A DNA stretch of 20,092 nt. Source: a virus (taxonomy: Duplodnaviria > Heunggongvirae > Uroviricota > Caudoviricetes). A program made the position numbers. Shown here one piece after another: positions 9,001 to 12,000 of the stretch (the stretch's first letter is position 1; each line of letters starts with the position of its first letter). The stretch lies in the IMG/VR virus record IMGVR_UViG_2541047908_000008, positions 1 to 20,092 of that record. One strand, 5' to 3'.

Positions 9001-12000
9001 AAAATCGTACTTAAGCACGGCGATCCGGTCGCTTTATCTCTTATGAGAAAAGGTCTTCTCCATCGCTCAGGTGTGACTTACAGCGCGTCAGGTAAAGAGA
9101 AATTTGTTATACCTGACGTCTGGTTCCATGAGTGTTATATGCGCTTTGCTGGTAAAGCTGATGAGCTAATTTAGTTCCTCGACGGCGGGGGATCGTTACC
9201 TCGCTGTCAGTTGTTTGGATTTCCGGTAGCCTGCCGCGTAAATGGCTACGTTTGGCAGGCAAATACTTCCACTGCATTCGTCGGTATTTTGGTTACGAAT
9301 GTTGCCGAGTGATATTGCTTTTTCAGAAAGGCTTAAACGCTTTCTCGTGCCTTTCTGAACTGGTTCCTCGCTGTCTGTTCCGAAGATCGAATCGATGATG
9401 TTGCAGATGGAATCACGCTCGATAGCCAGTTTTCTGCGCCGCTCATGACGGCGAGTTTTGGCATTTCCTGCGAATGTTGATTTTCCGTACACGATTACCG
9501 TCATGATGTTTCCCTCATGTGAAATGGCTTTGGTGGTGATGCGCCAGATGCTGATCTTCTGGTTGCTGTCGTTGCAGCTGCAATTCACATCACCGCCAAA
9601 CCCATCTCGTTTGGTATCTGTTTGCGCTTTGTCAGCGCCCCATCGAAGTTAAAGAGCCTGCCAATCTTTTCCGTTTGGCTTCCAGCGTCCTGCTGATGTG
9701 ACAATAATGAACCAATAGTTCGACATTATCAAGAACTATTGGTACGAAATTTTTGTGATTTATTAATGCTGCGAGATATGATTTTGATATATAAGGAAAT
9801 TTATTTTTGTAAATGCTGCAGATTGGTCTGTAGTTGGAGTGGTTATTGCTGGTGAGTTGGTTCGCGGTTTACCACATTTGCGGCTATTAAATATGGGAGG
9901 GCGATCGTGAGGCAAAGAAAACCCGGCGCTGAGGCCGGGGCAATAAAGTTATTCTGCGTCAATATCTTCTACGGTTAGTAGAGGGTGTACCTTATCAAGC
10001 AATTGGATGAAATCTTCATAAGTATCGCTTGCTTGCATGAGTGTTGTTACCCCTGTAAGTCTCTTTTGAAGAAGACCATATCCAGTTCCCTCTGATAGAA
10101 ACTGATGCATTTTTGCACCTGCCTTTTTTGCTTTTGCTCTTTCTTCCTTTAGCGCATTTCTTAGCTCTGGTGCCATGCGGTCATAAGTTATGTTATTCAC
10201 AAGATGACCAAAGTATTGCGGTCTCCGCATGTTTGCTTTGAATGGGACTCCTCTGAGTCTACATAACTCCTCAAAGAATTCTGGCGGATATGTGCTTACC
10301 CATGGTCGCATTTCTTTAGCGATGAATTGCTCAAGGAGTTTTGCCAGTTCATCGCGCTCTCGTTCTTTTTGGTATCCAGTCGCTTCATCAACGAGCGCAA
10401 CGGCGCCAACTCTAGCTAGAGCTTTATAGAGCGCTTTGGCTTTTGCAGCTGTATTCAAGTGATGCTTTTGTCGTAGGGCTCCATCCCTCTCAGCATCTGT
10501 CCATGCCTCGCAAAGCGCTGGTAGCATAGTAACGTCAATGCCATAAGCGACACCTGCACCTGATGTATTTTTATATACAATTGGTTCTGCTAGCGCTTCT
10601 CTTAGTTCATCAGAAATATATGGCTGAAGCTCATTTGCTTGGAGAACATATGGTAATTGACCTGGCTTCCCATTTGGTACCCATCTTGGCATTTTTGAGC
10701 CAACAGATACACCGAATGTTTCTGCCAATCCATTTGCACCTTGCATTGAAACCACTCTGCGACCATCAGGCAAAACAGCACAAGAAACACCTGTCGCCAT
10801 TAATCCTGTGTGAGTTGGCTTTGGAGCTGATCTAACGATTGCTGACATTGCTGCTGCTTTTTGAGCTCGTTTTTTAGTATCCATAAATCCCCCATATGCT
10901 TGGTTATGGTGATGATAGCTTATTTCAAATAAGCAGGGCAATGGTAGCTAAATCATCAATTAGCTACAAAATGCATCATTTTTATTTATCTCATTGATAT
11001 GTATATATTTATCGCTAAAATATTTTTAGCTATTCTGTGATTAAGCTAAATATTAATGCTAATTAATGCGTTAGCACAATGTGTGGATCACTACCAATAA
11101 AAAAGGCCGCACTTCTGTGCGACCTTTCATCATCCAAACGTCTCTTCAGGCCATTGGTTACCAGCTATGTGACGATGAAGTCACGAACTTTTCAGCCACT
11201 CCCTTGCCTCGATGTCATCCAGATGGCGGGACTGCTTCAGAATACCAGCCACATACTCCACCTTTGCTACTTGATGATAAGGCAACGTTATTGGTCTGTG
11301 GTCTTGGTTGATGCTTGTAAACTGGTATTCTCCATCTCTGTCATAGCCAAGAATCTTGATCATGTTGTGTCCTTCGATGGTTCTGACAAACACCTCATCA
11401 CCCGGGAATACTTTGGTGTTAGGCTCAATGAGTACATATTCTCCTGATTTTATTCTGGGCCACATGCTGTCTCCTTTCACACGAAGACCAAAGGCATCTG
11501 GATCATCGCTATAAATTTTGAGCCACCCATCGCGCTCTTCGGTCATCTCGATGGCACCATCAACACCAAGAATTGCCTCACCAACCACGCGCACTAACCC
11601 TTTTTTTAATTTGCCAACAAATGAAAGAGTATCTTCATCATTCGCTCCATTTAACGAAGTGCCGTGCTGAAGCCAAACAACATCAACGTTTAGAAATTTC
11701 GCAAGCGCATTCATTTTTTCCTGACGCGGTAAAGACTCAGCATTAAACCATTTGCTAACGCCTTTGGACGAAAGAGAAAGGGCACGGGCTATGGCCATCC
11801 CCCTACCATGTTCATCAAGACCAGCTTCTTTACAGGCTTGCGCTAGCCGCTGGGCGAATTCTTTGCGCACTTTTTCATTCTGAACCATGAGTACGATACT
11901 AAAGCACTTGCAAAAACTTTCAGTTCAACCATAATACGTACTGAAAGTACGAAAAAGGATATTCCTATGCAAAATCTTGATGAGCCGATTAAAGGTGTCG

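What the first reader, a model, noticed from the sequence alone, without database searches (positions are those of the whole stretch)
10940..11080. Dense array of TAGCTA / GCTAA-N-TTAGC palindromic motifs in the AT-rich region upstream of the rex-slot gene
Within ~140 bp upstream of the 311-aa gene the palindromic hexamer TAGCTA and its relatives recur at about 10945, 10961, 11013, 11027, 11044, 11059 and 11071, including a 20-bp near-palindrome CGCTAAAATATTTTTAGCTA. That is far more than expected by chance for a 5-6-mer, even in AT-rich DNA. This looks like a multi-site operator for a dimeric DNA-binding protein, so the gene may be tightly regulated. The core (A/G)GCTAA is also the half-site of the ori iterons inside the O-like gene (TTAGCC...GGCTAA), which raises the possibility of cross-talk with the replication initiator.
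Basis: seen in the sequence. Interest (0 to 1): 0.55.

Follow-up and report, generated by a model that had tools for sequence, protein, structure and literature searches.

The report
Conserved operator array of prophage cassette
The repeated TAGCTA-type motifs are real and mark a conserved, multi-site control region that travels with a single mobile prophage gene of unknown function (a P63C-domain protein); this points to tight and probably self-imposed regulation, not to cross-talk with the phage replication initiator.

Summary
In the 216-bp gap upstream of the 311-aa gene, GCTAA/TTAGC occurs 7 times against 0.94 expected (0 of 20,000 shuffles), and it forms three GCTAA-N7/8-TTAGC inverted repeats.

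The gene encodes a P63C-domain protein. With its flanking terminators it forms a 1.25-kb cassette (9903-11157) that moves between prophages with different cI and O proteins.

In 17 orthologous cassettes (59-100% protein identity, at least 7 genera) the motif units sit at fixed positions relative to a conserved sigma-70 promoter:
- Proximal units lie at about -58, -42, -28 and -13.
- Distal units lie at about -170, -154, -140 and -124.
- An IHF-like site lies at -87 in about half of the cassettes.
- The sequence between the units is free to vary.

The most likely reading is a looped operator array that represses the cassette's own promoter. The binding protein is not identified. My best guess, about 45%, is the cassette protein itself, for three reasons:
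- The array never appears without this gene.
- Other P63C subfamilies carry different palindromes on their promoters.
- The N-terminal domain weakly resembles winged-helix-like DNA-binding folds.

TAGCTA is also the experimentally defined site of the defence-island repressor RptR, but no RptR is encoded in the window or in any cassette locus. Binding by O, cI/Cro or SlyA is not supported.

The parts
9903..11157 (-). Mobile single-gene cassette (moron-like): terminator, operator and promoter region, P63C gene, terminator.
   Evidence: The cassette is 99.6% identical over exactly this span in two ST131 chromosomes, next to a different cI. Similarity to H-19B-type phages resumes at 11128, inside the upstream terminator.
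11101..11128 (-). Rho-independent terminator ending the cI transcript. It insulates the cassette promoter from PRM/PRE read-through.
   Evidence: It has a 12-pair stem followed by a T run. The core GGTCGCA..TGCGGCCTTTT is conserved upstream of the array in several orthologous cassettes.
11058..11075 (.). Distal operator unit pair, GCTAA-N8-TTAGC, at about -168 and -155 from the predicted transcription start.
   Evidence: Units at -170 and -154 are conserved in most orthologues.
11044..11049 (.). Distal single unit AGCTAA, at about -140.
   Evidence: A unit at -140/-139 is present in 9 of the 17 cassettes.
11014..11030 (.). Distal unit pair GCTAA-N7-TTAGC, at about -124 and -109.
   Evidence: It is poorly conserved and is degraded in the L006-type E. 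coli alleles.
10987..10999 (-). IHF-like site (minus strand TATCAATGAGATA; consensus WATCAANNNNTTR) at -87, midway between the distal and proximal units.
   Evidence: An ATCAA-containing match lies at -86 or -87 in 9 of 17 cassettes, under strict or relaxed patterns. This is a consensus match only.
10945..10966 (.). Proximal operator O1: the 22-bp inverted repeat TAGCTAA-N8-TTAGCTA, with units at -57 and -42, ending 3 bp upstream of the -35 hexamer.
   Evidence: It keeps a fixed register in 13 of 15 distinct orthologue sequences. The arms are nearly invariant, the spacer varies and the outer flanking bases vary.
10936..10941 (-). -35 hexamer, TTGCCC here and TTGACA or TTTACA in most orthologues.
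   Evidence: It is the only promoter-like match at a conserved position.
10918..10934 (.). Proximal operator O2: the perfect palindrome GCTTATTT-C-AAATAAGC, which fills the promoter spacer (units at about -28 and -13).
   Evidence: Read directly from the sequence. Orthologues carry GCTAA-N7/8-TTAGCTAA at the same place.
10912..10917 (-). -10 hexamer TATCAT. The predicted transcription start is near 10905.
   Evidence: In every orthologue a TAnnnT hexamer follows the invariant AGC of the last unit.
9949..10884 (-). Gene for the 311-aa P63C-domain protein (ribosome-binding site TGGGGGA at 10888-10894). It is the candidate autoregulator.
   Evidence: Pfam PF10546, E = 6.6e-23; phrog_2384, function unknown; no PADLOC hit. 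The AF2 model has a mean pLDDT of 77 for the whole protein and 83 for the N-terminal domain.
9922..9939 (-). Downstream terminator of the cassette.
   Evidence: a stem of 6 G-C pairs followed by a T run, 10 bp after the stop codon.

Best explanation
The motif array is the cis-regulatory region of a self-contained, mobile single-gene cassette.

A sigma-70 promoter (-35 at 10941-10936, -10 at 10917-10912) is bracketed and overlapped by four proximal TAGCTA-type units, at -58, -42, -28 and -13. These are arranged as two GCTAA-N7/8-TTAGC inverted repeats.

A second set of up to four or five units lies about 112 bp upstream. An IHF-like bend site lies between the two sets.

Proposed mechanism: a sequence-specific dimeric or oligomeric protein occupies both sets, and the two sets are brought together by a DNA loop. 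This occludes the promoter and keeps the gene tightly repressed in the lysogen.

The binding protein is most likely the product of the cassette itself, giving negative autoregulation through its N-terminal alpha/beta domain.

What is shown: motif enrichment, positional conservation, promoter conservation, cassette mobility, and exclusive linkage of the array to this gene subfamily.

What is inferred: that a protein binds, that it represses rather than activates, that a loop forms, that IHF takes part, and which protein binds.
For: - Enrichment far above composition-matched chance.
- Phylogenetic footprint: in 15 distinct upstream sequences, O1 lies in a fixed register next to the -35 hexamer, with invariant arms and a variable spacer.
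- In 17 cassettes of 59-100% protein identity (E. coli, Enterobacter, Cedecea, Symbiopectobacterium, Morganella, Providencia, Photorhabdus and metagenomes), the units fall at -170, -154, -140, -124, -58, -42, -28 and -13, and an ATCAA site falls at -87.
- The promoter lies 56-66 nt upstream of the ATG in the 15 sequences scanned first, and at a matching position in the two added later.
- The cassette is insulated by terminators. It is found in at least four different genomic settings: the cI-N slot next to different cI proteins, an Arc/Mnt region next to tail genes, an S24/Arc region, and the Q-holin slot. The regulator therefore has to travel with the cassette or be universally present.
- No other gene fits inside the cassette.
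- Collection-wide scans for the inverted repeat followed by a -35 hexamer: 5 of 6 viral hits are this cassette, and so is the only multi-unit hit among 25 metagenome hits.
- Other P63C subfamilies, with a different N-terminal half, carry different palindromes on their own promoters. One type is TTGCACGT-N4-ACGTGCAA, found from Klebsiella to Chromobacterium. Another is TAGCAT-T-ATGCTA.
- One protein (P0040, locus L155) has the window's C-terminal half but the other N-terminal half, and its promoter carries a degenerate version of the other operator.
Against: - No binding experiment exists, and no Pfam DNA-binding domain is detected in the protein.
- The co-variation of operator type with the N-terminal half could be simple physical linkage, because the promoter abuts the 5' end of the gene.
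- Distant P63C genes in the same slot keep the N-terminal domain but have no promoter of their own (L002 and L003). The domain therefore has some role other than autoregulation.
- O1 is centred near -50, a position also compatible with an activator.
- The 14-16 bp unit spacing puts neighbouring TAGCTA cores on opposite faces of the helix, which is unusual for simple helix-turn-helix dimers.
- TAGCTA is the proven site of an unrelated protein, RptR (PMC12255303).
- The IHF-like match is present in only about half of the cassettes.
Confidence: 0.45

Rival explanations
1. The units are sites for an RptR-family repressor supplied in trans by the host. RptR is a 79-aa dimer that represses an EPEC restriction-modification and DarTG defence island by binding TAGCTA palindromes. 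On this reading the prophage cassette is wired into a host defence regulon.
For: RptR's minimal site is exactly TAGCTA, within TTTAGCTAA repeats that overlap a promoter -10 box. Binding is cooperative and needs at least two units (PMC12255303). Many units in the array read TTTAGCTA or TAGCTAA(A).
Against: - No RptR homologue is encoded in the window or in any cassette locus (tblastn).
- There is no profile similarity to the P63C protein.
- The family is nearly absent from 2.9 million viral contigs, with a single distant hit.
- The RptR promoter is in only 243 of 5426 E. coli genomes, so most hosts would lack the repressor.
- RptR units are tandem with a 9-bp period. Here the units are 14-16 bp apart and in inverted orientation.
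Confidence: 0.1
2. A chromosomal factor conserved throughout the Enterobacterales binds the array and integrates the horizontally acquired AT-rich cassette into host control. Candidates are a SlyA/RovA-type counter-silencer, another or uncharacterised transcription factor, or H-NS together with IHF.
For: - The array is conserved across several Enterobacterales families.
- The region is AT-rich, 30-36% GC.
- The SlyA consensus TTAGCAAGCTAA uses the same TTAGC and GCTAA half-sites (PMC5797941).
Against: - The SlyA dyad geometry is absent. The window has no match of 9/12 or better and no TTA-N6-TAA, and nothing is positionally conserved in the orthologues.
- I found no known E. coli factor with a TAGCTAA-N8-TTAGCTA site. 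The one literature search returned only RptR.
- The sister subfamily keeps its own palindrome from Enterobacterales to Chromobacterium. That fits a regulator travelling with the gene better than a host factor.
- The array is never seen away from this gene.
Confidence: 0.2
3. The phage replication initiator O, whose ori iterons use the same GCTAA half-site, also binds the array.
For: The half-site 5-mer is identical. The ori holds four TTAGC-N7-GCTAA iterons. This O type also lies next to the cassette in L011 and, in diverged form, in L013.
Against: - Polarity is opposite and spacing differs: no TTAGC-N(0-12)-GCTAA occurs in the array.
- The same cassette in ST131 prophages has an O with an unrelated N-terminal half and no such iterons.
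- Most cassette settings lack this O type.
- This O type is common, in about 400 of 5426 genomes, while the cassette was found in only two complete genomes, so chance co-occurrence is expected.
- In L155 the operator and the iterons are unrelated.
Confidence: 0.03
4. The motifs are chance or compositional repeats, or remnants of recombination, and have no regulatory role.
For: AT-rich intergenic DNA often contains short palindromes. The distal unit pair at 11014-11030 is not conserved even among E. coli alleles.
Against: 0 of 20,000 shuffles reach the observed counts. The units keep their positions in 17 diverged cassettes while the spacers vary.
Confidence: 0.02

Closest known systems
RptR operator of the EPEC RptR / type I restriction-modification / DarTG2 defence island (Zhang et al., NAR 2025, PMC12255303)
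   Same: The core motif is the same 6-bp palindrome TAGCTA, with T/A flanks. There are several units, they overlap the core promoter of a gene set in a defence or mobile context, and at least two units are required for cooperative binding.
   Different: RptR units are three contiguous direct repeats with a 9-bp period. Here there are 8-9 units at 14-16 bp spacing, in inverted pairs, split into proximal and distal sets. The rptR gene is the first gene of the operon it controls, whereas no RptR homologue is present here.
hipBA promoter of E. coli: four HipB operators TATCC-N8-GGATA with an IHF site (recalled from the literature, not tested here)
   Same: Five-base half-sites are separated by N8. 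Several operators overlap -35 and -10. An IHF site lies within the operator region. The unit is autoregulated and its product is potentially harmful.
   Different: In hipBA the regulator is a separate small Xre-type HTH protein acting with its toxin partner. Here there is only one gene, no recognisable HTH, and the distal set lies about 112 bp away.
Lambda-type ori iterons bound by O protein
   Same: The 5-mer half-site is the same as in this phage's own iterons, and both are clustered dyad repeats.
   Different: The iterons are TTAGC-N7-GCTAA (inward-facing), about 21 bp apart, inside the O gene and followed by an AT-rich stretch. The array is GCTAA-N7/8-TTAGC around a promoter, and it occurs with unrelated O types.
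SlyA/RovA high-affinity site TTAGCAAGCTAA (PMC5797941)
   Same: The half-sites are TTAGC and GCTAA, and the setting is AT-rich, horizontally acquired DNA.
   Different: The SlyA site is a 12-bp dyad with N2 spacing and the opposite polarity. No such dyad occurs in the array.
Morons and rex-slot cargo of lambdoid prophages (rexAB, and other lysogen-expressed genes downstream of cI)
   Same: The position is between cI and N. The unit is autonomous, with its own promoter and terminator. It is more AT-rich than its flanks. Different cargo occupies the same slot in related prophages.
   Different: rexAB is co-transcribed with cI. This cassette is insulated from cI by a terminator and has an elaborate operator array of its own.

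Membership tests
RptR-controlled promoters | Binding units contain the palindrome TAGCTA (or TAGATA, TATCTA, TATATA). | tested here: met
   TAGCTA occurs at 10945, 10961 and 11027, with related units elsewhere. The definition of the site is from PMC12255303.
RptR-controlled promoters | An rptR gene (79 aa, PF24718) lies directly downstream of the repeats or elsewhere in the element. | tested here: not met
   tblastn of RptR against the window and all fetched loci found nothing. hhalign against the P63C alignment gave a probability of 0.1%. Only one distant RptR relative was found in the viral contigs.
RptR-controlled promoters | Units are contiguous 9-bp direct repeats, or spaced in multiples of 9 bp. 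| tested here: not met
   Unit centres are 14-16 bp apart and the units are in inverted orientation.
RptR-controlled promoters | RptR protein binds and represses the promoter. | not testable with these tools
   This needs an EMSA or a reporter assay.
SlyA/RovA binding sites | A 12-bp dyad resembling TTAGCAAGCTAA, or TTA-N6-TAA. | tested here: not met
   The window has no match of 9/12 or better and no TTA-N6-TAA. No positionally conserved match exists in 16 cassettes.
O-protein binding sites (ori iterons) | The dyad has the polarity and spacing of the cognate iterons (TTAGC-N7-GCTAA). | tested here: not met
   The pattern TTAGC-N(0-12)-GCTAA has no match in 10880-11140. The iterons are shown.
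O-protein binding sites (ori iterons) | The array co-occurs with the cognate O DNA-binding domain. | tested here: not met
   L001, L006 and L008 carry the same cassette but an O with a different N-terminal half and no GCTAA cluster.
cI/Cro operators of this phage | Sequence resemblance to the OR and OL operators. | tested here: not met
   The OR and OL regions carry TACGTACTGAAAGTACGA-type and GAACTATTGGTACGA-type repeats. The cassette sits next to at least three different repressors.
Autoregulated multi-operator promoter with an IHF-assisted loop | Palindromic operators overlap the -35 hexamer, the spacer and the -10 hexamer of the gene's own promoter. | tested here: met
   O1 ends 3 bp upstream of the -35 hexamer, and O2 fills the spacer up to the -10 hexamer. 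This holds in 13-15 of 15 sequences.
Autoregulated multi-operator promoter with an IHF-assisted loop | A second operator set lies at a conserved distance, with a bend site between the two sets. | tested here: inconclusive
   Distal units lie at -170 to -124 in all 17 cassettes. An IHF-like match lies at -87 in only 9 of 17, and this is a consensus match only.
Autoregulated multi-operator promoter with an IHF-assisted loop | The product of the regulated gene binds the operators. | not testable with these tools
   The evidence is indirect only: exclusive linkage, subfamily-specific palindromes, and weak fold similarity to DNA-binding domains.
P63C-domain proteins (PF10546) | A Pfam P63C match above the gathering threshold. 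| tested here: met
   81.6 bits against a cutoff of 26.1, over residues 183-269. All 26 aligned homologues match.
Moron-type autonomous prophage cassette | Own promoter and terminator, composition different from the flanks, and presence or absence polymorphism at the same slot. | tested here: met
   Terminators lie on both sides. GC is 35-36% against about 45% in the flanks. Related prophages carry other cargo in the slot, such as DUF2335 or an SDH-family protease.

The most novel reading that the evidence does not exclude
P63C-family proteins may be a so far unrecognised class of sequence-specific DNA-binding proteins, with a DHD/KilA-N-like N-terminal domain.

On this reading they set their own level through a looped array of eight or nine TAGCTA-type units. 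Their real job in the lysogen would be to bind the same motif on incoming DNA. One example is the TTAGC/GCTAA iterons of a common lambdoid ori type, found in about 7% of E. coli genomes and including a full TTAGCTAA at 13141. Binding there would block replication of superinfecting relatives.

Probability: 0.06. Interest if true: 0.75.

Novelty: new variant of a known kind. Interest (0 to 1): 0.45.

Why it matters
The slot downstream of prophage repressor genes is where lysogens keep exclusion and defence genes. How such cargo is kept silent but ready is poorly known.

This cassette is a compact, portable example. It holds one gene of unknown function, insulated by terminators, with an unusually elaborate and strongly conserved operator architecture.

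If the product is its own repressor, the P63C family gains a first testable molecular activity: sequence-specific DNA binding with a defined 22-bp site. The family is widespread in phages and has no known function.

If instead RptR or another host factor binds, the array would link prophage cargo to a host defence regulon. Either result can be obtained with simple EMSA and reporter experiments.

Tried and rejected
- Rfam scan of 9500-12300 at permissive thresholds: nothing near any gathering score. An RNA element is therefore not indicated.
- Divergent promoter on the + strand (TTGATA-16-TAAAAT, 10994-11021, 10/12 match): not positionally conserved in the orthologues. I treat it as fortuitous.
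- PADLOC: no hit. PHROGs: families of unknown function only.
- PDB sequence search: only spurious designer-PPR hits.
- Foldseek against the PDB with the full model: nothing below E = 0.3.
- Literature search for 'P63C domain': genome-annotation mentions only.
- Plasmid collection: no match to the cassette.
- The genome contigs protein scan returned only two loci. Orthologues were therefore gathered from viral contigs and by exact-protein look-ups. One look-up, P0115, found nothing.
It was replaced by a more specific pattern.
- Low-GC metagenomic contigs with TTAGCTAA-N8-TTAGCTAA (L172, L180, L181, L189; L169, L170, L176, L182, L184): no ORFs nearby, so I consider them unrelated.
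Full report
**Context**

The window is the early region of a lambdoid prophage. Reading left to right it holds integrase, ERF recombinase, Nmad5, sieB, N, an H-19B-type cI, cro, cII, O, a DnaB-like helicase, ninB, Q and lysozyme.

The finding lies between cI (11181-11888, minus strand) and a 311-aa gene (9949-10884, minus strand). That gene occupies the position rexAB has in lambda. Its product has a Pfam P63C domain (E = 6.6e-23). It matches only a PHROG of unknown function, nothing in PADLOC, and I found no functional literature.

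**Observation**

They resolve into three inverted repeats and one orphan unit:
- GCTAA-N8-TTAGC at 10947-10964.
- GCTAA-N7-TTAGC at 11014-11030.
- GCTAA-N8-TTAGC at 11058-11075.
- An orphan AGCTAA at 11044.

Against 20,000 dinucleotide-preserving shuffles of the 216-bp intergenic region (30% GC), the counts are far above chance:
- Seven half-sites are observed against 0.94 expected (0 of 20,000 shuffles reach this).
- Three inverted repeats are observed against 0.003 expected (0 of 20,000).
- Allowing any 5-mer to play this role, only 0.5% of shuffles reach three inverted repeats.

**The array belongs to a mobile cassette**

Similarity to H-19B-type phages stops at 11128, inside a strong terminator that ends the cI transcript.

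Two ST131 chromosomes carry window 9903-11157 at 99.6% identity next to a different cI. The unit is therefore terminator, AT-rich control region, gene, terminator.

Orthologues (59-89% protein identity) were found in Cedecea, Enterobacter, Symbiopectobacterium, Morganella, Providencia, Photorhabdus and metagenomic phage contigs. They sit in four kinds of slot:
- cI-N.
- Downstream of an Arc/Mnt-type repressor, next to tail genes.
- An S24/Arc region.
- Between Q and holin.

**Phylogenetic footprint**

In the 15 distinct upstream sequences scanned first, a sigma-70-like promoter lies 56-66 nt upstream of the ATG. It has a -35 of TTGACA or TTTACA, a 17-18 bp spacer, and a -10 of TAnnnT. The two cassettes added later have one at a matching position. 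It is the only promoter-like match at a conserved position.

When the sequences are aligned on the -35 hexamer, the 22-bp inverted repeat TAGCTAA-N8-TTAGCTA occupies the same register in 13 of 15. The arms are nearly invariant, the spacer is variable and the outer flanks are variable.

Over 17 cassettes, the unit centres fall at about -170, -154, -140 and -124 (distal set) and at -58, -42, -28 and -13 (proximal set). An ATCAA-containing IHF-like match lies at -86 or -87 in nine of them.

Unit spacing is 14-16 bp, and the two sets are about 112 bp apart centre to centre.

In window coordinates the units are:
- O1 at 10945-10966.
- O2 at 10918-10934, filling the promoter spacer.
- Distal units at 11014-11075.
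- The IHF-like site at 10987-10999.

It is already degraded in the closest E. coli alleles.

**Who binds?**

*cI and Cro.* The OR and OL regions of this phage carry TACGTACTGAAAGTACGA-type repeats, which I take to be the cI operators. The cassette also sits next to several unrelated repressors. These two proteins are excluded.

The evidence against O binding the array is as follows:
- The polarity is opposite and the spacing differs.
- The ST131 prophage with the same cassette has an O whose C-terminal part is 100% identical but whose N-terminal DNA-binding part is unrelated, and it has no GCTAA cluster.
- This O type is common, in about 400 of 5426 E. coli genomes, while the cassette was found in only two complete genomes. 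Its co-occurrence with the cassette in the window, L011 and L013 is therefore what chance would give.
- In L155 a P63C gene with a different operator sits beside a lambda-type ori with unrelated iterons.

*SlyA.* The consensus TTAGCAAGCTAA (PMC5797941) shares the half-sites. However, no such dyad, nor TTA-N6-TAA, occurs in the window, and none is conserved in the orthologues.

*RptR.* A literature search for the motif found a 79-aa repressor of an EPEC restriction-modification and DarTG island. Its experimentally defined minimal site is exactly TAGCTA, within three tandem TTTAGCTAA repeats over the -10 box (PMC12255303). This is the closest known DNA motif. As the general regulator of this cassette, however, it is unlikely:
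- RptR is not encoded in the window or in any cassette locus.
- It is not homologous to the P63C protein.
- It is almost absent from viral contigs.
- Its promoter is present in only 243 of 5426 E. coli genomes.
- Its units have a 9-bp tandem period, not 14-16 bp inverted spacing.

*The cassette protein itself.* Several indirect lines favour this:
- The cassette has no room for another gene.
- The array must work in many genera and several genomic settings.
- Scans for the inverted repeat followed by a -35 hexamer found it essentially only upstream of this gene subfamily. Five of six viral hits are the cassette, and so is the only multi-unit hit among 25 metagenome hits.
- Sister subfamilies with a different N-terminal half carry different palindromes on their own promoters. 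One type is TTGCACGT-N4-ACGTGCAA, found in Klebsiella, Serratia and Chromobacterium and in degenerate form in Erwinia. Another is TAGCAT-T-ATGCTA.
- The Erwinia protein P0040 shares the window's C-terminal half but has the other N-terminal half, and its promoter carries the degenerate form of the other operator.

Caveats:
- The promoter and the 5' end of the gene are physically linked, which by itself could explain the co-variation.
- Distant P63C genes in the same slot keep the N-terminal domain but are co-transcribed with cI and have no operator.
- O1 centred near -50 could serve an activator.

**Verdict**

It is a conserved multi-operator control region of a mobile prophage cassette. I am about 90% confident of that.

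The mechanism I favour, at about 45%, is repression by the cassette's own product, with the distal and proximal operator sets joined by a loop.

Host-factor and RptR readings remain open, at about 20% and 10%. O cross-talk is not supported.

The architecture is a new variant of a known kind, namely looped multi-operator autoregulated promoters. Its main value is that it gives the uncharacterised P63C family a concrete, testable DNA target.

Noticed in passing
window 13121-13250: Lambda-like origin inside the O gene: four iterons of the form TTAGC(C)-N5/7-(G)GCTAA spaced about 21 bp apart, followed by an AT-rich stretch. The O gene is mosaic. Its C-terminal part is 100% identical to the O of an ST131 prophage, while the N-terminal DNA-binding part and the iterons differ. 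A 60%-identical O in L013 keeps the same half-sites.
   Followed up: yes
window 13599-15992: The replicative DnaB-like helicase (797 aa) is interrupted by an intein-like insert with a LAGLIDADG homing-endonuclease domain at about residues 390-455. The orthologous helicase in L013 is 463 aa and has no insert.
   Followed up: partly
L155 2930-3000; L157, L158, L159, L022, L025 (upstream of their P63C genes): A second P63C subfamily, with a GGKARA-type N-terminus, carries a different conserved palindrome, TTGCACGT-N4-ACGTGCAA. It overlaps the -35 hexamer and spacer of its promoter, from Enterobacterales to Chromobacterium, and has 2-3 copies in L159. A third type, TAGCAT-T-ATGCTA, is seen in L160.
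   Followed up: partly
window 10971-10980 and about 11086-11092; same positions in the orthologues: Two further conserved short elements, AAGAT(C) at about -183 and AAAAGAT at about -72. Each lies about 13-14 bp upstream of the first unit of its set, so the distal and proximal sets look like parallel modules. Many copies contain a GATC (Dam) site.
   Followed up: no
window 10994-11021 (+): A strong promoter-like match on the opposite strand (TTGATA-16-TAAAAT, 10/12), pointing towards cI. Its -35 hexamer is the complement of the IHF-like ATCAA motif. It is not positionally conserved in the orthologues.
   Followed up: yes
window 9600-11200 versus E. coli genomes: The slot between cI and N is a cargo hotspot. 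Related prophages carry, at the same place, other P63C genes co-transcribed with cI, DUF2335 proteins, an SDH-family Clp-fold serine protease with a hypothetical protein, or small hypothetical genes.
   Followed up: partly
window 11889-11966 and 9700-9750: Presumed cI/Cro operators of this immunity type: TACGTACTGAAAGTACGA-like dyads at OR, and GAACCAATAGTTCGA / GAACTATTGGTACGA at OL.
   Followed up: no
window 7802-8485 (-) and 8635-9174 (+): An Nmad5 (nucleotide-modification-associated domain 5) gene and a sieB superinfection-exclusion gene lie just left of N. These are further lysogen or early cargo.
   Followed up: no
L172, L180, L181, L189; L169, L170, L176, L182, L184: Low-GC (27-37%) metagenomic contigs carry recurrent TTAGCTAA-N8-TTAGCTAA pairs with no ORF nearby. 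They are unrelated to the cassette and their nature is unknown.
   Followed up: partly
P63C protein residues about 157-191 (window 10312-10416): An invariant motif, LVDEATGYQ..R, with D166, E167, T169, G170, Q172 and R175 conserved in all 26 aligned homologues. It lies just upstream of the Pfam P63C region and looks like a catalytic or ligand-binding site.
   Followed up: no
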